Shown here piece after piece: positions 1 through 26,685 of a stretch of 64,000 nucleotides of DNA (its first letter is position 1; each line of letters starts with the position of its first letter). The stretch lies in NCBI RefSeq assembly GCF_009914755.1, contig NC_060943.1. One strand, written 5' to 3'. The translations under genes were made by a program, and so were the position numbers. This stretch comes from the human T2T-CHM13v2.0 reference genome, Homo sapiens. The notes below the pieces were generated by a model, which saw only the letters and a program-made list of their open reading frames with translations, made no database searches and was not told the DNA's origin.

Positions 1-546
1 AAAAGATGCCCGACTGAGACCCCAGGAGAGGGTTCTTTGTTCTCACACAGGAAGGAATTCCAGGCGAGTTGCAGAGAACAGTGAGAAGAGAGAGTTTACT
101 GAAAGCTACTGCATTACACAGTAGGGCGACCTCAGAATGTGACCGGAAAATGCACCGTCTTTTTTTTTCCTTTTAAGTTGTTCTGATATAGAGTCTTTTC
201 CATGTGAAGATTTAACTAAGCTGTGTCTACATGCGGTGGGCTGATAGCATGACAATGTTTAGTATCCTGTTGATTTAAAGAAAACTCTCCTTGACATTCC
301 AGTGTGTAGCTTAGGAAAGCATAGCTATCATTATGTTGAAGGCATCTATTGCTTTGGATATTGGGCATCTGGACATTTTGCTTTCATAGGAGTCTGTCTT
401 GCAAGCATTGCTAAGCTGCTTCCTCAGCCACAGACATCTTAGAACCAGGGTGGTGACTGGCCAGGACTGTGCCTTGCTAGTTTCAAGAAGGAGTTGATTT
501 CTAAATGGTGTTGCCCTCACTCTCCTATGTTCCTGTTTCCCTAGCA
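1..546 (-). mobile_element. ERV1 solo LTR, MER41-like (truncated by the window edge)
   Basis: Mirror of 26140-26685; ends ...tttccctagca. Confidence 0.65.
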
Positions 547-1587
547 CTGTGGTCATTTAGACAAAGACATTTCCCCTGAACCCAGGTTTTGCTTTGCTCA
601 TCAGTTTGGACATGAAAGGGCTTTACCTGTATTTTCTTTGCACTTTCTGATTTCCACTTGAATATCTTGTTTGAACTTAAGGACTTTGATTGCAGAAATT
701 TCAGAGACTGTGCTTCATAGTTTAAAACATTCTTACAATTTATAAAATGTAGGTATATCTAATTTTGACAAACAGGGACTACAGATTGATAAGATATCCA
801 GTTTTCTAATATATTAAATTTTCTTTGAGGCCAATTCCACGATCAATTTTTCCAGATGTTTGATGGTATACTATGAGGGTCTCTAGAGGAGGGACCTGCA
901 TTGCATACATATCAAACACGCTAAGTCCAGTGAACAATTCTTTTAATGGATCACCTGCTTTTCTCATTCACATTGGTGTCATGTCACTGGCAGAGGAAGG
1001 ATGCGTCCGTGTAGTTTGAATGACAGGATGTGTGAGTTTACTCCTAGGGACACGGTGGGCACAGCAGAGAGATGGGGCTGACTGCATCCTGTGCCTGGGA
1101 GAGTCCAGGGATAGGAAGGAATCAGCGTCTCATTTTCTACCCTCCACAGGGAAAGAGAATCCCTCGGGCAGGACCAGCAGTGATGGACCCCAACACTCTC
1201 TCCATGGAACAGGGGAAGCAGTTCTTAAAGCAGTGCGGGATCCCACAAAGAGATGTGAGTACAGGAGCTGCGGGGTCACCTGGGAGGCAGGTGGAATGGG
1301 TGGAGTCCAAGTCGAGGGGGAAGGCTGAAGCAGGCTCCCCGTCCATGACCGGCTCATATTCAGAGTTTCACACCCTCCATACACGGGCACTGACCCATTA
1401 AAATCGATATGTAATTCCTCAAAGGGACATGGGAAAATGACACCACCACTGCCCCTTAGTTCCCACCTGGGAACAGCAGCACTTCCCAATACCCTGGGCT
1501 TTCACTCTTGGCGCCATTTGAAGGTCATCAGCCAACTCCTCACCAGCTCTGGAGTAAAGAACTGTGAGATTGCCTTTGCATCCTCAT

Positions 1588-1875
1588 AGCTTAGCTCCCA
1601 CACATGAGTGAGAACATAAGGTGTTTGGTTTTGCATTCGTGACTTATTCACAGAGAATAATAGTCTCCAATCCCATCCAGGTTGCTGTGAAGGCCATTAA
1701 TTTCTTCCTTTTTATGGCTGAGTAGTATTCCATCGTGTGTGTGTATATATATAACAGTTCCTTTATCCACCGGTTGATTGATGGGCATTTGGGCTGGTTC
1801 CATATTTTTGCAATTGCGAATTGTGCTGCTGTAAACACGCGTGTACAAGTATCTTTTTCACATAATGACTTCTTT
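1588..1875 (-). mobile_element. L1 3' fragment (L1PB/L1MA-like); mirror copy at ~24745-25090
   Basis: ttagctcccacacatgagtgagaacat...tttatggctgagtagtattccat. The minus-strand peptide CTRVFTAAQFAIAKIWNQPKCPS resembles the ORF2p C-terminus. Confidence 0.85.
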
Positions 1876-2484
1876 AAAAAAAAGAAAAGAAAAAAAAAAC
1901 CAAAACACCAAAATGTGAGCCTGCCCAGCATTCCCTTTAAAATCTCAGGAAGATGGGAGTTCCTCCTCTCCTCTGCCAAGGCTTCCTCCTGCCTGCAGAA
2001 CTCAGGTTGCGTCTCCATTCTCCTTTCTCTGCATTAGATTGACTTGATGACAGAGAAATGGGTTGTTCTCGCCTCTGTGGAGGTTCTTCTGCGATTTCCT
2101 CTGAAGCCAGGAGAGGATCCGACCGCCCGCTATGTCTCAAATAAAAAATGCCAACCTTCAGTGGACTGGCCCACCACAATTTCACAGAGACGTGGATACC
2201 AAGAGAAGTGGTAAGACAAGTATTAGGGAATAAGCTAGGGACAGCCTGGGGGACTCCCCAAGCACTGTTTTCCTGTTGTATTCCTGTTGTGGGCTCAAGG
2301 TTTCTGCTGAACACGCCTGGAGGCTTCCGTCTTGCGTGTCCCCCCATGACACGGCCAGTGATGTGTGCGAAGCCTGGCGTGAACACGCACATATGTGTCA
2401 GCATCGCAGGATCCTCAGAGGGCTGGTCCTCGCTTGGCTTTGTGCCTGCCTCTGTGTGAAGAGTGGCGTGTGGTCACAGGGGTC

Positions 2485-2780
2485 TCACGTGAAACGTCAC
2501 GAGTGTCCATAGGTTGAATATGAAAACTTTGCAAAGCTTTGAGCTTCTGGTTGGTTTTCTGAGTGAGAAGCTATTCTATGAAAATAGTGGGTTTTCTGGA
2601 ACTTGCTGGAAAAATATCAATAGTTGTTGGCTGTTCATCTCTTGGCTTTGACAAGTATTGTCAGAGGGTTTCAGCTCTGAGGCACTGACTGCACACAAAC
2701 CGAGAGCCCAGAAAACTTTTATGCAAGGCTGCAAATCTCACTTCGCCCTCTAGAAATCAAGCAGCCTTTGGTTTATAAAA
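2485..2780 (+). promoter_or_regulatory. Putative FAM90A27P promoter elements: E-box TCACGTGA, CRE half-site, TATAAAA
   Basis: TCACGTGA 2485-2492, ACGTCA 2494-2499 and TATAAAA 2774-2780 lie upstream of the splice acceptor ending at 2981. All are mirrored in the right arm. Confidence 0.4.
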
Positions 2781-3039
2781 TCTGTGTCCTGTTCTGGGAG
2801 TAGGTCAGGCTGGGAGAGAGTCACAAAATAGCACAACTGGGACCTGGGTTCAGAGAGGACCAAGTTACAGTGGGCATGACTCAGTGGCCAGTGCATCCCT
2901 CCATCCCTACTTGGGTAAATAGGGGTAGGAGGAACTTTCGTCTGGTGTCTGTGTAATGTTTTCTCTTTTTCTTATGACTAGGAAATCCAACCATCATTTA
3001 ATGAAGAAGAATGATCAGAAGTTCAAGGACCTGCCACAG

Positions 3040-6429
<3,390 letters not shown>

Positions 6430-6625
6430 GGCCCCCAAGGCAAGAAGACCCAGCTTCAAGCCCATGCGACTTGGAAGTGGCTGAAAGGCTGAGAAGGGGA
6501 GAGGCAGGAAGCAGCCCTGTACGGGGTCAGCCCTTCCCTGGCAGCGGTGTCTGTTCAAACGTGGACCCCAGATACTATCGGGGATCAACGAACCTGCCTA
6601 TTTACATTGTATAAATTTAACCTGT

Positions 6626-6631
6626 ATTAAA
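6626..6631 (+). terminator. Candidate polyadenylation signal ATTAAA for FAM90A27P
   Basis: About 200 nt after the stop codon; mirrored as tttaat near 20345. Confidence 0.45.
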
Positions 6632-7659
6632 ATGGGGCTGTTGAAAGTATCCTATAGATTTCTTTTTCAATTACATATAATTATATGAGAAACTGAGTCA
6701 ACATAAGCAAACAATGCTCCACTAGTGTCAATAGAAAGCTCTGAAACTCATCTGAGGGAGGGAGCAAACCACTGAAATTTGAGTAATTCTGGGCAAAGGG
6801 CCCTTCAATGGTAGTGGAAAACGTCAGTGTCTCCTGAGTCAAGAATATTTGACTGTGAAGGAGAGTTGTAGTGAGAAACGATTAGCCTTGGAAAATGGGA
6901 AATATTTTTTTGCCTTGCAAGAATTTTTTTAAAAATCAGTGAATTCAAATATTTAAGAAACTGTTTTTCATACCCTATAGTTTTTTTTATCAGTCCATTC
7001 AAATATGTAATAAACTGTTCTTCATACCCTCTACATTTTTCCAGGATATAAAACAAGGGAAATACTCCATTTATTTTATGAAGCTACCTAGACTCTGATT
7101 TCCACTGTGGTAGAGAGGGCATCTCAGCTAGCGCATGTGTAAAGTTGAGGTACCAATATTCTCAATGTTGGAGTTATTCAGTGGATTCAATAAGTTATGC
7201 AAAGCACGTCATGAATGGCACATGGTAAAATATATTTTACTATTATTATTATCATACCACAAGTAAACAATAGAGTAACTTGAAGTTTTTAAACGAATTT
7301 CACTTATAAGGATGTATTCTACTAGCCTTGGAACTTTTGTTATTAAATGTCATTGTAAAATTCTGTTTGGTTAATTTCTTTCCATATGAATAAAATTCTC
7401 TGAACTATGACACGTCTTACTGGTGTTTTGAGTTTTCCTTTTCACCTCAGGCCAATTTCTTTACATTTCAATCATCGTGTTTCATTTACTTGAGCAAAGA
7501 GGACTGGGTGCCCAGAGTGTCACCCGCAGACCCATAGCTTCTGAGAAACACAGACCCTCAGGCACAGCCCCACCCCCACCTGCTCAATCAGTAGCTGCAG
7601 TTGAATAACAACCCCAGGTGTTTCACATGTGGGTTAAAGTGGGAGAAGCACGAACATAG

Positions 7660-7828
7660 ACTGACTCTCAACTTGGTTGCACGTTGGAATCTCCTGGTGA
7701 GCTTCCCCCGCTGGCTGGGTCCCACCCTTGGAGAGAGTCATGTTCTAAGTCCCGTGTGAGGCTGGATATAGGGATGGGTGGACCCTTTGAGGTTAAGTCA
7801 AACATGGGTCAAGGTTAGGAAACACTGG
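7660..7828. mobile_element. MER5-like hAT DNA transposon remnant (mirror ~19198-19365)
   Basis: ctctcaacttggttgcacgttggaatctcctgg...aaggttaggaaacactg. Confidence 0.55.
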
Positions 7829-8223
7829 AGGGAGAGGGCGAAGACAATGCTTCCCTAACCCGCCTCCTGAGGAAACTCTCCTGAATTCAGAAAGATCAGA
7901 AGGCTCTGAGGGTGGGATTTCAGTCTCAGGAGAGCATCCCTGTCTCCCTAGGACCTGGTCCCTAAAAAGCAGTGGATGGAATTGTCCAGGCTGCCTCGTG
8001 GATGGGGCTGGAAGCCATGAAATATAAAGAGTGATCTGGAAACTCAGGTTGAACTCCTCCGGCGTGCTTTAGTGGGGGTGATTTTTTAAAATGTGTTATA
8101 CCAGAGTCATTTCTTCAACACTGGGCAACCAATTTGCTGTACAAAGGGTTTCCCAGATACAGAAGTTACACTCCAGCACGTTGTGTTTAGTACACTCTGG
8201 TTTGTCTATGAGCTCCGTGCTGA

Positions 8224-10707: not shown

Positions 10708-11127
<420 letters not shown>

Positions 11128-11151
11128 TAGCACACCCACTGTAGAGTTACA

Positions 11152-11862
11152 TTAAGACATAAAAACTCTTTGCTTGAAATCAATAACCGCGCTGCACATG
11201 GGACATCTGTCAACTGCTTCAGCACATTGTTTACAAGTGACCAGATGTCCACAAGGAATAAAAACAACAGCGATATATCTGTCCATGCAGATTTTACAAA
11301 GCTTCTCCTCTTGCAGACGCCTTAGCGGCTCTTCAGGGCTGATTTCTCTCTGCAATGAAGTCTGATTCAATTCATTTTCTGTAGTGTCTTTCTGAGCGCT
11401 CACTAGATCTGCAACAAGAACCTCAAGCGTTTTATAGTTGCTCCCAGATGTTTGAATTCTTTCCTCCATTATTTTCTTAACGTCCTTGAAATCAAATCCC
11501 ATTCGTATAGCTTCTTGTAGCATAGGATTAGGGAAGATGGTATCACTGATTCTTTTAGTTAGTGATGGTGTTTTCTTGGTAGTTTGTACCAGAGCTCCCT
11601 CAAGTGAACGGGTTAAATGAATGTTGTTTATATATTCATGTCCCTTCTCTTCTAGCAGATATTTGCAACCTGGATACCATTTAGCATGCTGTTCCCAAGG
11701 ATCTTCCTTGGGCTTCCAGTTGGCTAGCCCTCCTCCACAGTGAAAGCACTGTACTTTATCCTCTTGACCTATAGCATAAAATCCAGCTCTTGCAAGCTGC
11801 TCTTTGTTGACGGAGTACATCCATGTCCCAAAAGTAATGAGCCGGGCTTCATAACCCGTCAT
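11152..11862 (-). CDS. BIRC8: BIRC8/ILP-2 inhibitor of apoptosis, 236 aa (BIR3-like, UBA, RING)
   Basis: [14 protein letters not shown]...[12 protein letters not shown]...HAKWYPGC (BIR) and CKICMD...[10 protein letters not shown]...CPMC (RING); first ATG of the frame is at 11860-11862. Confidence 0.95.
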
Positions 11863-12619
11863 GGATGGATTCCTTGGAGAACTTGTTGAATTTGAGAAAT
11901 TCCTATCAGAACTCGCAACATCAGATTCACCTCGAATATTAACGTTGTGGCCCAAAATAAAGAAGCAATTAGGAAAATGTCTCCTGTGTTCTGACCAGGC
12001 ACGATCACCAGGTTCCCAGTTTTTCAGTTTTCCGCCACAACAGAAGCACTGCACTTGGTCATCAGTGCCTGTGTAGTACAGCCCAGCACTGGCCAGCTCT
12101 CTCGGGGTCAAGTGGGCAGAGGCTGGCCAGTTGTGAAACGACTGTTATCTAGCTTCTTCACTATGCATGGCGGGGCTCCTCGGGTGTATGGAGTCTGATC
12201 TATCCACCACCTGTCCAGCTCTCAAAAGCTGGTCTGCACGAGTCTCAGACGGCCTGTCTAAAGCACAACGCTTTTCCTCTCCCAGATGGTTTTCAACTTG
12301 GTATTGACTATTTGGGACACCAGGATTTGCAGGTTTCGTGGCACTGTCTTCAAAATAAAAGCTGCGGATAAACCTGCAATTCGGCGCTGCTTTCTTGTGT
12401 TTGTCAACTCCTGAGCCCCCACGTTGCCACCTGTCTACCGCTTCAGGGCAGCTAAGGCCCCCCAGGGCGTCTCCTCCAACGCGCCGATGCCCAGGCAGGC
12501 CCACCACCTGCAAAGCCAGCAAACGTTTTTGATCTATTAATCTCTTCTACTAATTCTTCATCCTCATTGATGTCTGCAGACACATACGTTTTAGATCCTT
12601 CGAAACTGTTCAAAGTTAT
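11863..12619 (-). pseudogene. Disabled XIAP N-terminal coding region (BIR1, linker, BIR2) upstream of the BIRC8 ATG
   Basis: Ancestral ATG is now ATA (12617-12619; [11 protein letters not shown] versus [15 protein letters not shown]). Frameshifting deletion at ~12480; TAA at 12145-12147. Confidence 0.9.
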
Positions 12620-12965
12620 CTTCTCTTGAATATAGGACTTGTCCACCGTCTCGCGCCAGGATAGCGGCTCCAACCGCCCAGGCGATCGGCCTTGTCCCAA
12701 CGGGAGGGTCCCGCGGAGGGACGGTCCGAGCCCCCTACCATTGGAAATGCCAAACCCTGCCCTAAGCCGGGCCCAGCCACCCAGGCTGACGACCCACGAT
12801 TAGCACCGCGCGCACTGGGGAGCCGCCAAGGTGCAGCCACTTCCCAGAGCTCCGAAGGGTCAGCAAGAAAAGAGGAAGCCACGAACGCTCCCAGCCTCCA
12901 GCTGGAAACCACGCGGTGGAGTGGGCGCTTGCGCAGTGAGCACCTCGTGCCCCACGCCCGTGTCT

Positions 12966-14120
<1,155 letters not shown>

Positions 14121-15770: not shown

Positions 15771-16393
15771 TGATAAGCAGAAAAGAGGGTTGAGGAAGGG
15801 ACTTTACTGGCCCAACCAGAAACAAACTAAGAACCCAGGACTCTATTCTCTCCCTTGGACACCCTACACCAATCCCTGATGTCACATAATGCAATTTAGT
15901 GTAATCCGCAGTGACATTGATTGTTGGTGTTTAATCCAAGTGATAATGAAAACTGACTTGTAATGTGCTTAAGGACTTTAGCTCCAAAATTAATCTACTG
16001 TTCAGTCCACCCTAGGAGAATTATAGACTCAATTTTCAGAATTATTAAGAGTGCACTACAAGACCACCATGCTTCTCAAAGAGATAGGAGAGGTCAAGAG
16101 GAATCACCTAATCCTGTGCAGAAAGGGTGTCTCCAAATGGCAGTTGCTGGAATACGAATGTTTTCTCTCATCCTTAGTGCATGAATGCTTAGTGGAAACT
16201 GATTGTCTCCTCCTGAAAACATCCATAGTCTCTTCATACTGACAGATTGTTTTCCATCTTCTAGTTAAAGAATCAGCATTTAAGGAAGTGGTAACATACA
16301 AACTGGGTTTCAGAGAGCAGCCCTTGGGCACAAAAGTTTCTAATGATGTATTCTCTGGTTTAAGCATAGTCTCATATGAATCCCACAGTGTAC

Positions 16394-17035
16394 TGCTGGA
16401 AATGAAAGCTGGGAGTCGCAAAGAAAATGAGTACTTGAACAAAAGATTTCTCAGCAAGGCAATTTTACTTCTGCAGAAGGGTGCTGCCTATAAGCCTGAT
16501 TGCCATGAGAGCACCCCAAACAAAGGAAAGCAGGGATTCTTATTCCTAACGCATTGGGCCCCTACTGCTGCGTCCTATCTCCGTTGGCTGGAGCTGGACT
16601 GCACAATCTAGACTGATACTGATTGGCTAAAAACTTAAAACTTTACTAAATAGGTAAAGGCACAATGGGGAACAAAGAAAGGGATGGGGTTGGTTGTAGG
16701 AAACTAGGAAAACAATAACATTTCCAAATAAGGAAAGAAGCCTGGGCTGCAAGCTGGGACATGCCTGGGCATGTCTAGGCCTGTCCGGACAGGCCAGGAA
16801 ACATATGGGTTAGGCCTCTTGGTTTACAGTACAGGGATATAGGATTACTTATTTCTTTACTGTGTTTACCAACTGCCCGGGGCACAACAAAGAGTTATTA
16901 GTAGGGTAAAAGATTTGTTAATAGTATGAAACATGAAGGAAACTTGAAAGAAGCTTTTAAGTGGGACTATCATTCTTAGAACTTAATATTATTAACAAAA
17001 AGGGAAGTTTTGAAGAGGAACTTTTAATTTCCACA
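16394..17035 (-). mobile_element. ERV1 solo LTR, LTR10 (HERV-I)-like, 642 bp
   Basis: TG...CA termini with a 4-bp TSD GTAC (16390-16393, 17036-17039). The minus strand starts tgtggaaattaaaagttcctcttcaaa and has CCAAT boxes and an AGTAAA. Confidence 0.85.
16757..16786. promoter_or_regulatory. p53-family response element
   Basis: GGACATGCCT + GGGCATGTCT are two perfect RRRCWWGYYY half-sites with no spacer, followed by a one-mismatch half-site AGGCCTGTCC. Confidence 0.85.
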
Positions 17036-17763
17036 GTACAATTTTGATTTGTAAAATACACAAAATTTAACACGTTAAAGATTCCATTTGTACAAGGGGC
17101 TTCCACTTAACATGTTTCAGAAATCATGCTTTATTGCTATTACTTTTACTTGTATCAATTATGAATATAGAGATAAGTATACAATTTGAAATTACTAACA
17201 TTAGGTTTCTACCTTGTATGATTTTATCACATATTGGTGTTTCATTTCCCATAGTTTGGAGCAAGACATAGTGTTCAGTGATTTCTGTGATAGGTTCCAA
17301 TTTATTTCTGGCATAAAAGCAAAATCTTATGTCTGCTGCCATCTCAAGATAGAGGCAATTGTGCATTCTTTAAATATGATTTGTCATGGAGCAGTTCCTA
17401 GAGAATTATAAGGTCATTCTGCGTCTATGTTATGTTAAGATATCTCAATTTTATTTGAAGTTTGTATTGGCATATTCTATAAATCTTTATCCATGAATGT
17501 AAACTTGTTACAAAGTTACAAAATAAAATAACACCAATCTACAATAAGAGGACAGGACTTAAAATGACTCTATATACATCTGCATTACTTGAAGAAGACA
17601 GTTAAATTCTCCCTTGCATAGAGTTTAACTCCACCACTCTTTACCAACCCTGCCAAGGTCAAGCCCCCTCTTTGCTCTAAAATTTTGGATTTTGACAAAT
17701 CAGTAGCTTTATCCATCTACGTGTTCCTTAGCTTTCCAGTGAAAGTAATAGTCCTGCCTGTTC

Positions 17764-17830: not shown

Positions 17831-20545
17831 AGTGTACCTTTTTGAGTCATTTTCCTTGAGTAGCCCTCATGTTTTTGACATCATTTGTCCACTCCTGTTC
17901 CAAAGCACCCTTTCAAGGATTGTTGTATAAGAAATCATTCTAAGAGATGTTGACACTGTCATCATTGGGGGTAAAAGACAGACATGACCATGTAACAAAG
18001 ATTCTGCCTCCTGCTTGAAGGCCCTACATATTTCATGACAGTCTTGATGATGGTGGGATGCTGAGAGAAAAATGATTTTCTGGAAAAGGAAAGGACGGGT
18101 TGAGGGATAAGAGAAGGCACGTGGTCATGGAGTACATGTGTTCATCAAGCTGGAAACAGGGGAGGAGTAGGAAGCCTCCCTGCTCTTCCATGCTAGTGAA
18201 GCTCATGTAAGGGAAGAAGGATTTAAACAAGCAACTGAATGTGCTTTGCTTACTATTCATTCTTTTCCTGGCAGAACAGTGAAGATTCAAGGGTGACTTG
18301 AAAGCATTCTAGCTTCCGTATTTGAGCCTTAAGCAGCCAGCAGGCAGGTGGCACTGGGAGGGTCGAGCTTTGCTGCTGCCTTCCTTACCAGCGCAGACAC
18401 TCTCCTGCTCTGCACTCCAGTTTCTTCCTCTGTCCCTATCCTGACTTCGTCAACATTAAAGAAGAAACTAAATATTCTTGGAATTTGTTGTAAGTGGGGA
18501 ACTCAAACTTCTACAGCTCTGCTGGATATGCATGCCCCTGTTTCCATTCTGGCCTCTGTGGTGCAATGCAGGGAGGGTGGGCTAGGTGCGGGGGAGGCTG
18601 AAAGTCCCCGGGGATAAGCATGGGTCATGGGTGCACGCGTGGGCAGAAAAAGAAAGGCTCCGTATCTGGCCCTCCCTGGTTGCTGAACGTACAAGCAGAA
18701 GAAGGAAGCTTCGCAGAACTTAGGGTGAAGAAACAAAAGATGAAACCTCCCTCTACCCTGGCAGGCCCCATGCTCACCCCATCTACACCCGCGCATTTCC
18801 CACAGGCTGCCTGGGATCCTGTGGTGCAGCCTGCTAGAGTGTAATTTCTCTATCAGGGAAACTGTTTGTACAGCAAATTGGGTGGCCGGAGTTGAAGAGA
18901 TGGCTCTCACGTAACGTATATTTAAAAATTACCTTACTAAAGCACGCTGGAGGAGTTCAACCTGAGCTTCCAGATCACTCTTTATATTTCATGGCTTCCG
19001 CCCCCATCCACGAGGCAGCCTGGAGACTTCCATCCACTGCTTTTTAGGGACCAGGTCCTAGAGAGACAGGGACGATCTCCTGAGACTGAAATCCCACCCT
19101 CAGAGCCTTCTGATCTTTCTGGATTCAGGAGAGTTTCCTCCCAAGGTGAAAATGTGAGGAGGCAGGTTAGGGAAGCATTGTCTTCGCCCTCTCCCTCCAG
19201 TGTTTCCTAACCTTGACCCATTTTGACTTAACCACAAAGGGTCCACCCATCCCTATATCCAGCCTCACACGGGACTTAGAACATGACTCTCTCCGAGGGT
19301 GGGACCCAGCCAGCGGGGGAAGCTCACCAGGAGATTCCGACGTGCAACCAAGTTGAGAGTCAGTCTATGTTCGTGCTTCTCCCACTTTAACCCACATGTG
19401 AAACACCTGGGGTTGCTATATAAGCTGCAGCTACTGATTGAGCAGGTGGGGGTGGGGCTGTGCCTGAGGGTCTGTGTTTCTCAGAAGCTACGGGTCTGCA
19501 GGTGACACTCTGGGCACCCAGTCCTCTTTGCTCAAGTAAATGAAACACGATGATTGAAATGTAAAGAAATTGGCCTGAGGTGAAAAGGAAAACTCAAAAC
19601 ACCTGTAAGACGTGTCATAGTTCAGAGAATTTTATTCATATGGAAAGAAATTAACCAAGCAGAATTTTACAATGACTTTTAATAACAAAAGTTCCAAGGC
19701 TAATAGAGTACATCATTATAAATGAAATTCATTCACAAACTTGAATTTACTCTATTGTTTACTTGTGGTATGATAATAATAATAGTAAGATATATTTTAC
19801 CATGTGCCATTCATGACGTGCTTTGCATAACTTATTGAATCCACTGAATAACTCCAACACTGAGAATATTGGTACCTCAACTTTACACATGCGCTAGCTG
19901 AGATGCCCTCTCTACCACAGTGGAAATCAGAGTCTAGGTAGCTTCATAAAATAAATGGAGTATTTCCCTTGTTTGATGTCCTGGAAAAATGTATACCATA
20001 TAAAAAAGAACAGTTTCTTAAATGTTTGAATTCAATGATTTAAAAAAAACACATTCTTCCAAGAAAAAAAAATTTCCCATTTTCCAAGGCTAAGCGTTTC
20101 TCACTACAACTCTCCTTCACAGTCAAATATTCTTGAGTCAGGAGACACTGACGTTTTCCACTACCATCAAAGGGCCCTTTGCCCAGAATTACTCAAATTT
20201 CAGTGGTTTGCTCCCTCCCTCAGATGAGTTTCAGAGCTTTCTATTGACACTAGTGGAGCATTGTTTGCTTATGTTGACTCAGTTTCTCATATAATTGTAT
20301 GTAATTGAAAAAGAAATCTATAGGACACTTTCAACAGCCCCATTTTAATACAGGTTAAATTTACACAATGTAAATAGGCAGGTTCGTTGATCCCCGATAG
20401 TATCTGGGGTCCACGTTTGAACAGACACCGCTGCCAGGGAGGGGCTGACCCCGCACAGGGCTGCTTCCTGCCTCTCCCCTTCTCAGCCTTTCAGCCACTT
20501 CCAAGTCGCATGGGCTTGAAGCTGGGTCTTCTTGCCTTGGGGGCC

Positions 20546-23500
20546 TCAGTCACTGTCACTGTCCTCAGAGGAGGAAGTGACCAGAAAGTCCTCATAGAGG
20601 ACACTCGTTGAGACCTGGGGACCCCGCCCCTCAGGCTGCCTTGAGAAGCGAGGGCTCTGAGCAGAAGCAGAGTTTTCAGGAGGACGGGATGTGGGAGGCG
20701 TTCTGAACCTGGGGCTCTTCTGTCCCTTGTCCCCTCTCATGAAGGTGACACTGCCGGGCCTCCCTGGAACATGAATGGGTGGTCCAGGCTGGAGGACGGG
20801 GCAGCCCTGGGCTGGGCCCAGGAAAGGTGAGCTGGGTGCGGGCTGGAGGTTGACTCTGGGCTGCAGGGTTGCTGTCTTGGTGGCTGCTGTCTGTGCAGTC
20901 GCCTCGGGTGCCTGTTTGGATCCAAGTCCAGTTGCAGTGCGGGGAGGCTGGAGTGTCTGCACAGCGCCCACATCCGGGAGCTGAGTTCTCAGTGCAGGGG
21001 TCTGGAAGGAGCTGAATCTTGCTTTCTTTGCGGGGTTCTGGAAAGTCTGGGTGGGGACGGGGCCAGGCTCCTTGTCTGGTGCCTGGGTTCTGGAGTCCTG
21101 GCCACACTGTTTTCTGACTTGCTGTGGTCTGGGCTTTGCATCTGCAACGGGATGTTTGATTTCTGCCTGGGATTTAAGGCCAGGACCCAGGGCAAGCGCC
21201 TGCATGGCAGGCTGGAGAGCACCATGGGAGGACATGTCAGGCCTGTTGGCTGGCAGCCTGGCACTGAGAGTGGGGGTCTGGTGGGAGCTCTTCAGAACAG
21301 GGAGCAGGGAGGCAGTAACGTCCCTGCCATGTCCCTTGGTGGGTCCACAGGTGCTCAGTTGAGGTCAATCGTTGTGACCCGAAGGGCAGAGTAATCTCAT
21401 CTCGGGTTTGTTGACAGGCGGTGGACCTGTGGACACAGGGCCCAGGACAGATCTCTTCTTGGTGGTGTGGACAGGCAGTGGCATGGTAGGATGCTACGGG
21501 AGAAAACATCCCACATGAGACAGCTCAGCAGTAGAATTTCCAAACTCTGAAGCAGGGAACTCACATGCAAAACCACATCACAACAGACACTGTGTGAAGA
21601 TGAGAAGCAAGCTAGGACAGAGGAAAATGGACAGGCTGACATGAGAAACAGAGAATAACAGGCACTGGGACTGCGTCTAAATCAGGATCAAATATAGGGA
21701 AGACCCTCCAAAAGAGACAGGACGTAGGAAATTAAACGTCACAGAAAAGGATGTACACATGGTCACTGAATATATGCAGAATTGTCACTTCAGGAATAGT
21801 GTTGGGGAAAGATAGCCAACCATTCTGTTTGCTGCGACTATCACATATGAAAATTAAAACCGTCTTTATGTTCTCTATTGTTAATATCAAGGGAATATCA
21901 ATTCCCCAAACAACGTGGAGACTGGAAATGTCACAGCTCCTTTTGAAAGCAGTTGTAAGATCATGCATAAAAATGAAGGAGACGCCTTATCTGCAGCCAG
22001 TATCCCGAAGGCATCTGATCAGTCACTCCCCACGGGCACTGAAATGCGCCCAGCAGCATTTGCTGGCCAACTTGCAAATAAAGGTACAGAAACCAATGTT
22101 TTAACAAAGAAGCTGGAAACTGGAGTATGCAAAGTCCTCAGGTAGCGTAGTTCTCCTGCAGGGCAGCCTAGGTCTTAACATGACCCCCACCCATGAAGGG
22201 CACAGAAGTGAAGGAATCAGGGGACCTAGAGGAGAAACAGAGCAGGGGCAGGGGGAGACTCACCCTCAGGAATGAACAGGCTTCCGCTGGCTCCTTCCAG
22301 GCTTCCTGCGTTTTCTCTTGGGGAGTTCTGGGAAATGTCTGCTTCGGAGCTTCGCTCTGCTGCTGCTGGGGACTGCAGAAGAAATCACGTTCACTGTCTG
22401 GACCCGCCTGACCCTCCTTGTCCACACCAGTGACTGGGAACCAAGCACCCTCCCGGAACCCAGCCCTAGCCCTTGCTTTGGGTGAGGGAGGCGTTCAGGC
22501 CTCTGTGAACTTTGCCAAGACAGCCCCTTCTCTCATCTCAGAAGCAGCCCCACTTCCAGGAAGCTCCGCCCCCCACCCCCACCATGGCCCCAGGTTCTCT
22601 AAGTTCATTCAGGCCCTGGAACTGCTCTGCCTGCCTCGGGTAACATCCCCAGGTCTCCCACAGCCCCTGCCCTCTAGAGACTCTCAGCGCTGGAATAAGC
22701 TCGGAGTGCGGACCCTGGAAGGCAGGGGCCTCCGTCCACCTCCATTTGGAGCTTTCCTTGTGTGCTTAGAGAAGGCTGCACAGAAAGACTAGGGGAGACA
22801 CCAGCTCCTGAGGCGCCGACCTCACGGATCTTCCTTGACCCTGCAAAATCCTTACCTTGGACTTCGCTCCTTTTCTCTGTCATTCGTCGTAAAGGGCCCT
22901 GGAGTCGTAAAGGGTAGCTGGGCCTTTGCTGGTTTCAGGTTCTCCTTCTCCTTGTGTGAGCCCAGGACCTGCAGAGGAAGGGCCCCACTCCACCTCTTAA
23001 TGGGGCAGGTCTTGCTCCTGGCTGAGTGCCCAAAGGCCCCGCAGTTCTTGCATTTCACCTGCAGGTGGAGGAGGACACAGAGCAGTGAGTCAACAGCAAT
23101 CACAGGCACCTGCAAGGTTCACACAAGGCCTGGGTTTTGGAGATGGATTATTTTAGGAGGGGGACATACGCCCATGGGCTGTTGGTTGCCAGGAAATTCA
23201 AGATATTATCGTCCTCCCCAGAGCCCGTTTAACAGGGATCCCAGGAGGAAGGACGCTTGTGTCTGAGAGTGAAGATAATGAACCGGTGTTGAGGACTCGG
23301 CAAACACCAGGCTGGACATGACACTGGACAGAGTATGAGGCTGCTCCTCAGAGACTCCGAATGGGCCAATCTGCTAGGGAGGAGAGCACAGACCTGTCAG
23401 CCTGAGTCCAGTGGGAGCACCTAAGTCATAATCATGGTTCCCATGTTCAAGCCCACTCTCTGGTGTCCATAGGTTACCAACATTTTCAAGCCCCCACTGA

Positions 23501-23621
23501 CCCTGGATTCCTCCTGCTCTGCTGGGAGAGTCGTCTGCCCCATGGGTCTCCTCTGCTGCTCCTGTGGGTTCTTGGCTCCGGGGGGCCCCTGAGCCTGATG
23601 ATGGATGGGATGACCGGCCAT
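20546..23621 (-). pseudogene. FAM90A28P: FAM90A family copy with a premature stop; exons 23502-23621, 22856-23058, 22264-22372, 20546-21493
   Basis: Mirror of FAM90A27P with intact GT-AG sites; TCA>TGA at 21365-21367 (codon 187). Confidence 0.9.
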
Positions 23622-24877
23622 CTGTGGCAGGTCCTTGAACTTCTGATCATTCTTCTTCATTAAGTGGTTGTTGGATTTCCTAGTCATAAGAAAAAGAGAA
23701 AACATTACACAGACACCAGACAGAAGTCCCTCCTACCCCTGTCTACCCAAGTAGGGATGGAGGGATGCACTGGCCACTGAGTCACGCCCACTGTAACTTG
23801 GTCCTCTCTGAACCCAGGTCCCAGTTGTGCTATTCTCTCCCATCCTGACCTACTCCCAGAACAGGACACAGATTTTATAAACCAAAGGCTGCTTGATTTC
23901 TAGAGGGCGAAGTGAGATTTGCAGCCTTGCATAAAAGTTTTCTGGGCTCTCGGTTTGTGTGCAGTCAGTGCCTCAGAGCTGAAACCCTCTGACAATATTT
24001 ATCAAAGCCAAGACATGAACAGCCAACAACTACTGATTTTTTTCCAGCAAGTTCCAGAAAACCAACTATTTTCATAGAATAGCTTCTCACTCAGAAAACC
24101 AACCAGAAGCTCAAAGCTTTGCAAAGTTTTCATATTCAACCTATGGACACTCGTGACGTTTCACGTGAGACCCCTGTGACCACACGCCACTCTTCACACA
24201 GAGGCAGGCACAAAGCCAAGCGAGGACCAGCCCTCTGAGGATCCTGCGACGCTGACACGTATGTGCGTGTTCACGCCAGGCTTCGCACACATCACTGGCC
24301 GTGTCATGGGGGGACACGCAAGACAGAAGCCTCCAGGCGTGTTCAGCAGAAACCTCGAGCCCACACTGTGCTTCAGAGTCTCCCATGCCGTCCCTACCTT
24401 ACTCCCTAATACTTATCTTACCTCTCCTCTTGGTATCAAGGTCTCTGTGAAATTGTGGGTGGCTGGTCCACTGAAGCCTGGCATTTTTTATTCGAGACAC
24501 AGCGGGCGGTCGGATCCTCTCCTGGCTTCAGAGGAAATCGCAGAAGAACCTCCACAGAGGCGAGAACAACCCATTTCTCTGTCATCAAGTCAATCTAATG
24601 CAGAGAAAGGAGAATGGAGAGGCAACCTGAGTTCTGCAGGCAGGAGGAAGCCTTGGCAGAGGAGAGGAGGAACTCCCATCTTCCTGAGATTTTAAAGGGA
24701 ATGCTGGGCAGGCTCACATTTCATTGTTTTTTTTTTCTTTTTTTTTAAAGAAGTCGTTATGTGAAAAAGATACTTGCACACATATGTTTACAGCAGCACA
24801 ATTCGCAATTGCAAAAATATGGAACCAGCCCAAATGCCCATTAATCAATGAGTGGATAAAGGGACTATGGTGTGTGT

Positions 24878-24878
24878 G

Positions 24879-24942
<64 letters not shown>
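24878..24942. repeat. (TATC)n tetranucleotide STR within L1
   Basis: About 16 perfect units. Confidence 0.97.
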
Positions 24943-24943
<1 letters not shown>

Positions 24944-26139
24944 GATGGAATACTACTCAGCCATAAAAGGAAGAAATTAATGGCCTTCGCAGCAACCTGG
25001 ATGGGATTGGGGACTATTATTCTCTGTGAATAAGTCACGAATGCAAAACCAAACACCTTATGTTCTCACTCATGTGCGGGAGCTAAGCTATGAGGATGCA
25101 AAGGCAATCTCACAGTTCTTTACTCCAGAGCTGGTGAGGAGTTGGCTGATGACCTTCAAATGGCACCAAGAGTGACAGCCCAGGGTATTGGGAAGTGCTG
25201 CTGTTCCCAGGTGGGAACTAAGGGGCCATGGCAGTGGCATTTTCCCATGTCCCTTTGAGGAATTACGTATCGATTTTAATGGGTCAGTGCCCGTGTATGG
25301 AGGGTGTGAAACTCTGAATATGAGCCGGTCATGGATGGGGAGCCTGCTTCAGCCTTCCCCCAGGCTTGGACTCCACCCATTCCACCTGCCTCCCAGGTGA
25401 CCCCGCAGCTCCCGTACTCACATCTCTTTGTGGGATCCCGCACTGCTTTAAGAACTGCTTCCCCTGTTCCATGGAGAGAGTGTTGGGGTCCATCACTGCT
25501 GGTCCTGCCCGAGGGATTCTCTTTCCCTGTGGAGGGTAGAAAATGAGACGCTGATTCCTTCCTATCCCTGGACTCTCCCAGGCACAGGATGCAGTCAGCC
25601 CCATCTCTCTGCTGTGCCCACCGTGTCCCTAGGAGTAAACTCACACATCCTGTCATTCAAACTACAGGGACACATCCTTCCTCTGCCAGTGACATGACAC
25701 CAATGTGAATGAGAAAAGCAGGTGATCCATTAAAAGAATTGTTCACTGGACTTAGCGTGTTTGATATGTATGCAATGCAGGTCCCTCCTCTGGAGACTCT
25801 CATAGTATACCATCAAACATCCGGAAAAATTGATCGTGGAATTGGCCTCAAAGAAAATTCAATATATTAGAAAACTGAATATTTTAACCATCTGTACACC
25901 CTCCTTGTCAAAACTAGATATACCTACATTTTATAAGTTCTTTCTAATATTAAGGACGTTTTAAACTATGAAGCACATTCCTTGAACTTTCTGAAATCAG
26001 ACTCCTTGAGATCAAACAAGATATTCAAGGGAAACCATCAAGTGCTAAGAAAATACAAAATAAAGCACTTTTATGTCCAAACTGATGAGCAGTGCAAAAT
26101 GTGGGTTCAGGGGAAATGTCTTTGGCTAAATGACCACAG

Positions 26140-26685
26140 TGCTAGGGAAACAGGAGCATAGGAGAGTGAGGGCGACACCATTTAGAAATCAACTCCATCT
26201 GAAAACTAGTGAGGCACAGTCCTGGCCAGTCACCACCCTGGTCCTAAGACGTTTGTGGCTGAGGAAGCAGCTTAGCAATGCCTGGATGGACAGACTCCTA
26301 TGAAAGCAAAATGTCCAGATGCCCCATATCCAAAGCAATAGATACCTTCAAGATAATGATAGCTATGCTTCCTGAGCTACACACTAGAATGTCAAGGAGA
26401 GTTTTCTTTAAATCAACAGAATACTAAACATTGTCATGCTCTCAGCCCACCACATGTAGACACAGCTTAGTTGAATCTTCACGTGGACAAAACCCCTATA
26501 TCAGAAAAACTTAAAGACAGTGCATTCTTCTGGTTGCGTTCTGAGGTCACCGTACTCTGTAATATAGTAGCTGTCAATAAACTCTCTTCACACTGCTCTC
26601 TGCAATTTGCCTGGAATTCCTTCCTGCATGAGATCCAAGAACCCTCCCTCAGGGTCTGGATCGGGCCTCTTTTTTTTCCACAACA
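26140..26685 (+). mobile_element. ERV1 solo LTR, MER41-like
   Basis: TG...CA ends, AATAAA near 26576, and a 3' end ccaagaaccctccctcagggtctggatcgggc typical of the MER41 group. Confidence 0.65.

What the first reader, a model, noticed from the sequence alone, without database searches (positions are those of the whole stretch)
16394..17035. Solo LTR with a perfect p53 element, oriented towards the anti-apoptotic retrogene BIRC8
Seen: a 642-bp TG...CA LTR with GTAC TSD. It contains GGACATGCCT-GGGCATGTCT (16757-16776; two perfect half-sites, no spacer) and a third near half-site, upstream of minus-strand CCAAT boxes (~16622, ~16553). It lies on the same strand as BIRC8, ~3.4 kb upstream of the retrocopy 5' end, in the spacer between both FAM90A copies. 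Established: LTR10 subfamilies are a known source of p53 sites, and ILP-2 is a testis-expressed IAP reported to inhibit caspase-9. Inference: an ERV-donated p53/TAp63 promoter or enhancer could couple germline DNA damage to an apoptosis inhibitor and/or to FAM90A.
Basis: partly seen in the sequence, partly recalled or inferred. Interest (0 to 1): 0.8.

Follow-up and report, generated by a model that had tools for sequence, protein, structure and literature searches.

The report
Old solo LTR with p53 site
This is a real, tens-of-millions-of-years-old leftover end piece (solo LTR) of an LTR10/HERV-I-type retrovirus that still carries its family's inherited p53 binding site and is already catalogued as an enhancer, so it is an ordinary, known kind of element whose effect on the neighbouring BIRC8 gene remains unproven.

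Summary
Window 16394-17035 is a 642-bp TG...CA solo LTR flanked by GTAC duplications. It carries one perfect spacerless p53 full site at 16757-16776, against 0.01 expected in 64 kb. Its sense strand is the minus strand, pointing at BIRC8 3.47 kb away. A proviral relative on chr6 fixes the orientation: a tRNA-Pro primer site (16/18) and protease, RT and RNase H in that order.

Family: LTR10/HERV-I group, gamma-like. It is not the MER61C anchor tested and not LTR10D; the subfamily is unresolved. It is old: 0.23-0.29 K2P from every other copy, terminal branch 0.093.

The p53 site is inherited. The homologous site is perfect in 7 of 21 copies.

The site is already known. RefSeq lists a reporter-assay enhancer centred on it. 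The exact 20-mer is printed as a "BIRC8 p53-RE" (PMC2719629). BIRC8 is named among p53-bound genes in ChIP-seq (PMC3048874).

Control of BIRC8 or FAM90A is not shown. The annotated BIRC8 start lies in its own CpG-rich patch, and RefSeq calls BIRC8 a transcribed pseudogene. Print reports that p53 binding at LTR10/MER61 rarely changes neighbouring genes.

The parts
16390..16393 (.). Target-site duplication, left copy (GTAC)
   Evidence: Read directly. Identical to 17036-17039.
16394..17035 (-). Solo LTR, 642 bp, TG...CA, LTR10/HERV-I group. The sense strand is the window minus strand.
   Evidence: Searches give the dispersed copies and their bounds. Searches give the orientation from the chr6 proviral relative. 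One search shows no interior in the window.
17036..17039 (.). Target-site duplication, right copy (GTAC)
16757..16776 (.). Perfect spacerless p53 full site (two decamers), sense positions 260-279 of the LTR
   Evidence: 1 match, 0.01 expected; homologous site in family copies. The same 20-mer is printed under BIRC8 in Table 1 of PMC2719629.
16777..16796 (.). Two further degenerate decamers (1 and 2 mismatches to the half-site consensus)
16622..16626 (-). CCAAT box (sense position 410). It opens the 3' module shared with other LTR10-type subfamilies.
   Evidence: Six of the 30 loci match only from about query 396-408 onward.
16553..16557 (-). Second CCAAT box (sense position 479)
16539..16544 (-). 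AATAAG, a TATA-like hexamer 13 nt after the second CCAAT. Taken as the likely core promoter (inference).
   Evidence: The role is inferred from position only.
16464..16469 (-). AGTAAA, the likely polyadenylation signal of the R region (inference)
   Evidence: The surrounding AGTAAAATTGCCTTGCTGAG stretch recurs at the ends of many matched copies.
16199..17398 (.). RefSeq functional element 'MED14-independent group 3 enhancer'. Its centre, 16798.5, falls just after the four-decamer cluster, 22 bases past the perfect site.
   Evidence: For the class test against p53 motifs.
11089..12922 (-). Neighbour: BIRC8 (XIAP retrocopy; RefSeq calls it a transcribed pseudogene). The 236-codon ILP-2 frame is open in this assembly.
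   Evidence: Gene table; (81-88% DNA identity to XIAP exons).
12400..13100 (.). CpG-rich patch over the annotated BIRC8 start (GC 0.53-0.62, CpG observed/expected 0.80-0.85)
402..8073 (.). Left arm of the inverted duplication carrying FAM90A27P
   Evidence: 11 blocks, 92-100% complementary.
18936..26284 (.). Right arm of the inverted duplication carrying FAM90A28P

Best explanation
A gamma-like retrovirus of the LTR10/HERV-I group inserted here, on the minus strand, tens of millions of years ago. Its two LTRs later recombined and left one LTR between the 4-bp duplication. The LTR's U3 region brought a p53 response element that was already in the virus. In this copy it happens to have stayed a perfect consensus site.

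Shown:
- The element's identity, bounds and orientation.
- That the site is inherited.
- That RefSeq holds a reporter-assay enhancer feature centred on it.
- That the site and gene are already in print as a p53 element and a p53-bound gene.

Inferred: p53 binds the site in cells with active p53, and the fragment then activates transcription in an episomal assay. In the chromosome it most likely acts as a bound, weakly consequential or conditional distal enhancer, like most LTR10/MER61 p53 sites. It most likely is not the promoter of BIRC8.
For: Ends, duplication and motif.

Dispersed family: 39 scored matches of 1089 first-look candidates. Matches are confined to about the LTR bounds.

Proviral relative at chr6:31183141-31193452:
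- Two LTRs lie on the same strand.
- The 18 nt after the upstream LTR match the tRNA-Pro 3' end at 16 of 18 positions. The next best of the 20 tRNAs tested scores 12 of 18.
- The interior reads protease, then RT, then RNase H on the same strand.
- An RT piece is closest to the PDB chains named 'Reverse transcriptase/ribonuclease H p80' and MMLV reverse transcriptase (E 4.5e-9 to 4e-8). Lentiviral RTs score about 1e-5.

Named anchor: the TRIM22 intron-1 LTR10D (PMC3597737) matches query 392-642 at 73.5%, E 4e-31.

Inheritance of the site: of the 21 copies among 30 loci that cover the place, 7 are perfect, 2 have one mismatch, 5 have two, and 7 have a length change.

Enhancer class: searches give the feature. 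A p53 full site with at most 1 mismatch occurs in 5 of 21 chr19 features of this class (this one included), against 0 of 20 and 0 of 20 in two other classes.

Print:
- PMC2719629 Table 1 (section read).
- PMC3048874 (passage).
- Sci Adv 10.1126/sciadv.ado1218 (passage): LTR10A-G, n = 2331, come from the gammaretrovirus HERV-I, which entered the anthropoid genome 30 My ago.
- bioRxiv 10.64898/2026.04.19.719484 (passage): p53-responsive enhancers do not need Mediator in MPRAs.
Against: - The similarity to the one named LTR10 anchor covers only the 3' 250 nt, at 73.5%. No Dfam or RepeatMasker call could be made, so the subfamily is open and the LTR10 label is not airtight.
- The enhancer class is a mixture. 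16 of its 21 chr19 members have no near-consensus spacerless p53 site, so the label alone does not prove p53 dependence.
- The source paper for that label (Neumayr 2022) was not held. The cell line and assay are recalled.
- The ChIP-seq peak that PMC3048874 assigns to BIRC8 could not be placed, because supplements are closed.
- The reference listed for the 2009 table entry is an in-silico motif study, so that entry is a prediction, not occupancy.
Confidence: 0.8

Rival explanations
1. One reading: the LTR is a p53/TAp63-inducible promoter or dedicated enhancer for BIRC8 (and/or the FAM90A copies), linking DNA damage in germ cells to an apoptosis inhibitor.
For: - The LTR has the same strand as BIRC8 and lies 3.47 kb upstream. 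It carries two CCAAT boxes, an AATAAG and a perfect p53 site.
- LTRs of this kind can act as p53-driven promoters: the MER61C promoter of LINC01021/PURPL (PMC5732690) and LTR10/MER61-initiated transcripts (PMC12129084).
- The LTR10D in TRIM22 confers p53 response (PMC3597737).
- BIRC8 is named among p53-pS46-bound genes (PMC3048874).
- The 236-codon ILP-2 frame is open.
- FAM90A27P is fifth in an actinomycin-D RNA-seq table (PMC6828743, passage). This is a weak lead: ratios that large fit near-zero counts.
Against: - No annotated transcript, exon or CAGE feature starts in the LTR. The only BIRC8 transcript starts at 12922, inside a CpG-rich patch, while the LTR has CpG observed/expected 0.22.
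- At 3 of the 4 places where three or more relatives read CG, the window LTR reads CA. This is what long germline methylation would give.
- The LTR's own AGTAAA lies downstream of its putative start.
- Print finds p53 binding at these families generally not tied to neighbour activation (PMC4287438 abstract; PMC10474299 passages).
- BIRC8 is a 'transcribed pseudogene' in RefSeq, and the ILP-2 BIR domain is reported unstable (PMC9260022).
- The site's survival needs no selection: 7 of 21 relatives are perfect too.
Confidence: 0.1
2. The LTR binds p53 but does nothing in the chromosome (heterochromatic, methylated). Its enhancer activity exists only on a plasmid.
For: - STARR-seq-active LTR10/MER61 p53 elements often sit in H3K9me3, closed chromatin, with little effect on predicted target genes (PMC10474299 passages).
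- The LTR is CpG-poor.
- The only functional feature in RefSeq here is a reporter-type one.
Against: p53 can open closed chromatin at many of its sites (PMC12143595 abstract), and TP53 activation opens LTR10 subfamilies (PMC12129084 passages). Chromosomal activity under stress is therefore not excluded. This rival overlaps the best explanation and differs only in degree.
Confidence: 0.35
3. The element belongs to MER61 or another ERV1 family rather than LTR10.
For: MER61 is the other classic carrier of p53 sites. The match to the LTR10D anchor covers only the 3' 250 nt.
Against: - The Dfam-named MER61C at the PURPL promoter (PMC5732690) gave no blastn match to the window LTR or to any of the 30 family loci, apart from Alu.
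- The LTR10D anchor matches the window LTR and 14 of the other 29 loci over the same 3' module at E below 1e-20.
- Gamma-like pol agrees with print on LTR10/HERV-I (10.1126/sciadv.ado1218). The tRNA-Pro primer site agrees with the 'IP' of the HERVIP10 name, which is my recall.
Confidence: 0.1
4. The p53 motif is a chance match in decayed sequence.
For: None beyond the a priori possibility.
Against: 0.01 matches are expected per 64 kb. The same site sits at the homologous place in 21 of 21 copies that cover it, and 14 of them have at most 2 mismatches and no length change.
Confidence: 0.01

Closest known systems
LTR10 family LTRs of HERV-I / HERVIP10 (ERV1, gamma-like)
   Same: - TG...CA ends and a 4-bp duplication.
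- A shared 3' module (CCAAT to U5) with the named LTR10D in TRIM22 intron 1: 73.5% over 257 aligned nt.
- A proviral relative with gamma-like RT and a tRNA-Pro primer site.
- A p53 site in U3, as reported for several LTR10 subfamilies (PMC12129084, PMC4287438).
   Different: - The 5' 390 nt do not match the LTR10D anchor.
- The copy is 0.23-0.29 K2P from every other copy found, so it belongs to a rare or old lineage whose subfamily I could not name.
- The AP-1 and tandem-repeat features described for LTR10A/F (10.1126/sciadv.ado1218) were not looked for.
LTR10D p53 enhancer in TRIM22 intron 1 (PMC3597737)
   Same: An LTR10-group solo LTR that carries a p53 site near a host gene. It is the standard example of a lineage-specific p53 response given by such an LTR.
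   Different: For TRIM22 the p53 response of the gene was measured across species. Here no response of BIRC8 or FAM90A has been shown. The TRIM22 copy has no perfect spacerless site in the 10 kb fetched; the window copy does.
MER61C promoter of LINC01021/PURPL (PMC5732690)
   Same: An ERV1 LTR with a p53 site close to a transcript start on the same strand.
   Different: There is no detectable DNA similarity. In PURPL the transcript starts at the LTR. Here the nearest annotated start is 3.47 kb away, in its own CpG-rich patch.

Membership tests
Solo LTR of an endogenous retrovirus | TG...CA termini with a short direct duplication of the target | tested here: met
   TG at 16394, CA at 17035, GTAC on both sides. 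By eye in the flanks printed, two other copies also show 4-bp duplications (L005, L010).
Solo LTR of an endogenous retrovirus | Dispersed copies that share the same bounds, some as pairs flanking a primer site and gag-pro-pol | tested here: met
   (bounds). (chr6 pair with a tRNA-Pro primer site, protease, RT and RNase H).
Solo LTR of an endogenous retrovirus | No proviral interior beside it | tested here: met
   interior pieces of the chr6 relative hit only Alu in the window. The LTR itself occurs once in the window.
LTR10 / HERV-I (HERVIP10) group | Sequence similarity to a named LTR10 copy or model | tested here: inconclusive
   only query 392-642 matches the TRIM22 LTR10D, at 73.5% (E 4e-31). 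No Dfam or RepeatMasker model is on hand.
LTR10 / HERV-I (HERVIP10) group | Gamma-like (class I) pol in full-length relatives | tested here: met
   RVT_1 and RT_RNaseH_2 domains. The best true PDB matches are the MLV/XMRV-type RT chains, ahead of lentiviral RTs.
LTR10 / HERV-I (HERVIP10) group | Primer site for tRNA-Ile or tRNA-Pro (the 'IP' of the name; recalled) | tested here: met
   Pro 16 of 18, Ile-AAT 11 of 18, 20 tRNAs tested. One provirus only.
LTR10 / HERV-I (HERVIP10) group | Subfamily assignment (LTR10A-G, B1, B2) | not testable with these tools
   No repeat library is available. It is not LTR10D. None of the 30 loci matches the LTR10D anchor over more than 400 nt.
MER61 | Similarity to a named MER61 copy | tested here: not met
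   no match to the MER61C at the PURPL promoter, which carries its own p53 site at L031 position 1874.
p53 response element | Two RRRCWWGYYY decamers with a 0-13 nt spacer | tested here: met
   0 mismatches and no spacer.
p53 response element | Occupancy by p53 in cells | not testable with these tools
   Print only. BIRC8 is named among p53-pS46-bound genes (PMC3048874 passage).
p53 response element | p53-dependent activation of a reporter or gene | tested here: inconclusive
   The RefSeq enhancer feature is centred on the site. Its class is enriched for p53 sites but mixed. No p53-null comparison was seen for this locus.

The most novel reading that the evidence does not exclude
The LTR is a stress-conditional p53-family enhancer or alternative promoter that raises BIRC8 (ILP-2) or FAM90A27P/28P RNA in germ cells or p53-activated cells. 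That would make a virus-donated p53 switch sit upstream of an apoptosis-inhibitor retrocopy inside a palindrome.
Probability: 0.1. Interest if true: 0.5.

Novelty: already known. Interest (0 to 1): 0.2.

Why it matters
LTR10 and MER61 LTRs are the textbook case of retroviruses seeding p53 sites across primate genomes, and this copy is one more of them. It is already in RefSeq as an enhancer and already in print as a BIRC8 p53 element, so it changes nothing conceptually.

It would matter modestly if p53 were shown to induce an inhibitor of apoptosis through it, since that would be a negative-feedback arm specific to primates. Three things lower that prospect: the doubtful activity of ILP-2, the pseudogene label, and the CpG-rich start of BIRC8 itself.

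Tried and rejected
- Naming the subfamily. The named LTR10D (TRIM22) and MER61C (PURPL) anchors were fetched and compared. They show only that the window copy is not MER61C and not LTR10D. PMC12129084 gave no gene-anchored examples of other subfamilies.
- Naming by pol. A word search with one RT piece found nothing among named proteins. The length filter makes that blank uninformative.
- Calibrating the clock on the catarrhine-wide TRIM22 LTR10D. This failed because none of the held loci is a full LTR10D.
- Dating by paralogous empty or filled sites. The flanks are single copy.
- A closer relative. A search with the 5' 257 nt found none closer than 77%.
- The source paper of the enhancer class, Wang 2007 and Richter 2001 were not held. 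I used passages of citing papers instead. What I say of the HCT116 STARR-seq origin of the RefSeq label, of the 2.2e-9 rate and of the HERVIP10 naming is recalled.
- A search for the provirus between HLA-C and HLA-B in print found nothing useful.
- Chance motif: rejected.
- Selection on the site: not needed to explain it (7 of 21 perfect).

Full report
WHAT IS THERE

Window 16394-17035 begins with TG and ends with CA. It is 642 bp long and sits between two GTAC tetramers, at 16390-16393 and 17036-17039. The 20-mer at 16757-16776 is two perfect p53 decamers with no spacer. It is the only such site on either strand of the 64-kb window, against 0.01 expected from shuffles. The next two decamers have 1 and 2 mismatches. 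On the minus strand there are CCAAT boxes at 16626-16622 and 16557-16553, an AATAAG at 16544-16539 and an AGTAAA at 16469-16464.

IT IS A REPEAT WITH THESE BOUNDS

A search of the reference genome scored 39 of 1089 first-look candidates. Of the 30 loci fetched, this one included:
- 11 match from query position 1-134 to at least 589.
- 13 match only from about query 255-296 onward. That is from the p53 site onward, since the site is sense positions 260-279.
- 6 match only from about 396-408 onward, which is from the first CCAAT box to the end.

The LTR is therefore modular: a 3' promoter-proximal/R/U5 module shared widely, a middle module that opens with the p53 site, and a rarer 5' U3 part. 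A search with 1.9 kb around the element found matches only within query 583-1243 (the LTR is 595-1236), and the flanks are single copy. A search with the 5' 257 nt alone found no relative closer than 77%.

ORIENTATION AND FAMILY

Two copies on chr6 (31183141-31183703 and 31192830-31193452, between HLA-C and HLA-B by the gene table) lie on one strand about 9.7 kb apart.
- The 18 nt that follow the upstream copy match the 3' end of tRNA-Pro at 16 of 18 positions. The next best of the 20 human tRNAs tested has 12 of 18, and Ile-AAT has 11.
- A 2,001-base stretch from the expected pro-pol region is open on that same strand only in five pieces of 100-133 codons (5 of the 9 frames of at least 50 codons listed). 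That means at least four interruptions, whose kind I did not determine.
- Scanned apart, the pieces give protease, RT (two pieces), the RT-RNase H connection and RNase H, in that order.
- One RT piece is closest, among real reverse transcriptases in the PDB, to the chains named 'Reverse transcriptase/ribonuclease H p80' and MMLV RT (E 4.5e-9 to 4e-8), ahead of lentiviral RTs (about 1e-5). Two designer-protein hits with no passing stretch are spurious.

So the sense strand of the window LTR is the window minus strand, and the virus was gamma-like with a proline primer site.

Two copies named in print served as anchors. The LTR10D in TRIM22 intron 1 (PMC3597737, passages; located by its published primers) matches the window LTR over query 392-642 at 73.5% (E 4e-31). 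It matches 14 of the other 29 loci over the same module. The Dfam-named MER61C at the PURPL/LINC01021 promoter (PMC5732690, passages) has its own p53 site but no similarity to any of the 30 loci beyond Alu.

Print states that LTR10A-G (n = 2331) derive from the gammaretrovirus HERV-I (10.1126/sciadv.ado1218, passage). I therefore file the element in the LTR10/HERV-I group. It is not LTR10D and not the MER61C anchor tested, and the subfamily is unresolved for want of a repeat library.

SOLO STATUS

Interior pieces of the chr6 relative hit nothing in the window except Alu copies, and the LTR occurs once in the window. Together with the intact 4-bp duplication, this is a solo LTR left by recombination between the two LTRs of a provirus.

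AGE

- Among the 11 copies of the first match class (two of them truncated at the 5' end), the window copy is 0.227-0.292 (K2P) from every other. Six copies form a tight younger cluster at 0.078-0.121.
- In a neighbour-joining tree the window copy's terminal branch is 0.093. That branch also contains change in the virus before insertion, so it is an upper bound.
- At a recalled rate of 2.2e-9 per site per year it gives at most about 42 My. At 1.3e-9 it gives at most about 70 My (my arithmetic).
- The two LTRs of the chr6 provirus differ by 0.073, or 0.059 without CpG contexts. That is about 17-28 My at the same rates.
- Print gives 30 My for the entry of HERV-I into anthropoids (10.1126/sciadv.ado1218) and 40-63 My for LTR10/MER61 (PMC5732690 citing Wang 2007). 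It also reports a catarrhine-wide LTR10D and a platyrrhine-specific LTR10A/B recombinant (PMC3597737).
- My estimate is an insertion roughly 25-45 My ago. No other primate genome could be consulted here.
- BIRC8 is 81-88% identical to the XIAP exons, so it is itself an old retrocopy. The order of the two insertions cannot be told.

THE p53 SITE IS INHERITED, NOT SPECIAL TO THIS COPY

Of the 30 loci, 9 do not cover the place. Of the 21 that do:
- 7 have a perfect spacerless site.
- 2 have one mismatch.
- 5 have two mismatches.
- 7 have a length change. One of these has two perfect half-sites and a 2-nt spacer.

All six members of the tight younger cluster lack CATG in the core of the second half-site: five read CATT and one has a deletion there. 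A third of relatives are perfect, so this copy's perfection needs no selection to explain it.

WHAT IS ALREADY KNOWN ABOUT THIS LOCUS

RefSeq carries a functional element, 'MED14-independent group 3 enhancer', at window 16199-17398, with its centre at 16798.5. I tested what that class holds. On chr19 there are 21 such features. A spacerless p53 full site with at most one mismatch is present in 5 of the 21 (this one included), against 0 of 20 'CDK7 group 2' features (20 of 37 taken in list order) and 0 of 20 'BRD4-independent group 4' features (20 of 32 taken in list order). The class is thus enriched for p53 sites but mixed.

The source paper was not held. A preprint cites it for the statement that p53-responsive enhancers do not need Mediator in MPRAs (10.64898/2026.04.19.719484, passage).

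The exact 20-mer is printed under 'BIRC8, chr19:58490331-58490351' among 23 top-scoring p53 elements in Table 1 of PMC2719629 (section read). It is described there as not experimentally validated, and the reference listed for it is an in-silico motif study. PMC3048874 (passage) names BIRC8 among genes bound by serine-46-phosphorylated p53 in etoposide-treated U2OS cells. I could not see where the peak lies, because supplements are closed.

DOES IT CONTROL BIRC8 OR FAM90A?

Nothing here shows it.
- The only annotated BIRC8 transcript is one exon starting at 12922, and no transcript or CAGE feature starts in the LTR.
- The annotated start lies in a CpG-rich patch (12400-13100; GC 0.53-0.62, CpG observed/expected 0.80-0.85). 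The LTR has CpG observed/expected 0.22, like its flanks (0.28 and 0.31). At 3 of the 4 places where three or more relatives read CG, it reads CA.
- This points to BIRC8 having its own start region and to the LTR having been methylated in the germ line for a long time.
- The 236-codon ILP-2 frame is open. But RefSeq labels the gene a transcribed pseudogene, and a review reports an intrinsically unstable BIR domain and weak, disputed caspase inhibition (PMC9260022, passages).
- Genome-wide studies report that p53 binding at MER61, LTR10B and MLT1H is strong but generally not associated with activation of adjacent genes (PMC4287438 abstract), and that predicted targets of MER61/LTR10 enhancers are largely unaffected by loss of p53 (PMC10474299, passages).
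FAM90A27P appears fifth in an actinomycin-D RNA-seq table (PMC6828743, passage), though ratios of that size usually reflect near-zero counts.

VERDICT

This is a real, old solo LTR of the LTR10/HERV-I group with its family's inherited p53 element. It is already annotated as an enhancer and already printed as a BIRC8 p53 site. It is an ordinary member of a well-known class. The proposed link to apoptosis control in the germ line is an untested inference with a low prior.

Noticed in passing
window 402-8073 and 18936-26284: A large inverted duplication in 11 blocks, 92-100% complementary, including 1797 nt at 99% and 952 nt at 100%. It carries FAM90A27P and FAM90A28P around a spacer of about 10.9 kb that holds BIRC8 and the LTR. 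The uneven identity suggests arm-to-arm gene conversion.
   Followed up: partly
window 12400-13100: A CpG-rich patch (CpG observed/expected 0.80-0.85) lies over the annotated BIRC8 start in an otherwise CpG-poor region. It may be the retrocopied XIAP 5' end acting as BIRC8's own promoter.
   Followed up: partly
The XIAP-like sequence upstream of it is split among other frames. Other XIAP retrocopies lie on chr2, chr10 and chr11 at 77-85% identity.
   Followed up: partly
G000 chr6:31183141-31193452 (L002, L004, L125): A provirus of the same LTR lineage lies between HLA-C and HLA-B. Its LTR pair differs by 7.3%, an Alu lies at the 5' edge of the downstream LTR, and the pro-pol stretch sampled has at least four interruptions. 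Its upstream LTR has 2 mismatches in the p53 site; its downstream LTR is perfect.
   Followed up: partly
L005, L006, L008, L009, L010, L011: A tight younger subfamily of the full-length class (pairwise K2P 0.078-0.121) lacks CATG in the second half-site in all six copies: five read CATT and one has a deletion there. This lineage spread with a weakened p53 site.
   Followed up: no
G000 chrY:23705132-23705457, 24359010-24359335, 25978992-25979317: Three Y-chromosome copies of the middle-module class have identical scores and bounds, as expected of ampliconic repeats.
   Followed up: no
chr19 features named 'MED14-independent group 3 enhancer' (L033-L052): Only 4 of the 20 other members hold a near-consensus spacerless p53 site. 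The remaining 16 must owe their class to something else.
   Followed up: no
L031 position 1874 (G000 chr5, just upstream of the PURPL start): The MER61C p53 site at the PURPL promoter is a perfect spacerless site too, but in an LTR with no detectable similarity to the window's. So the LTR10 and MER61 p53 sites lie in LTRs that blastn cannot align.
   Followed up: no
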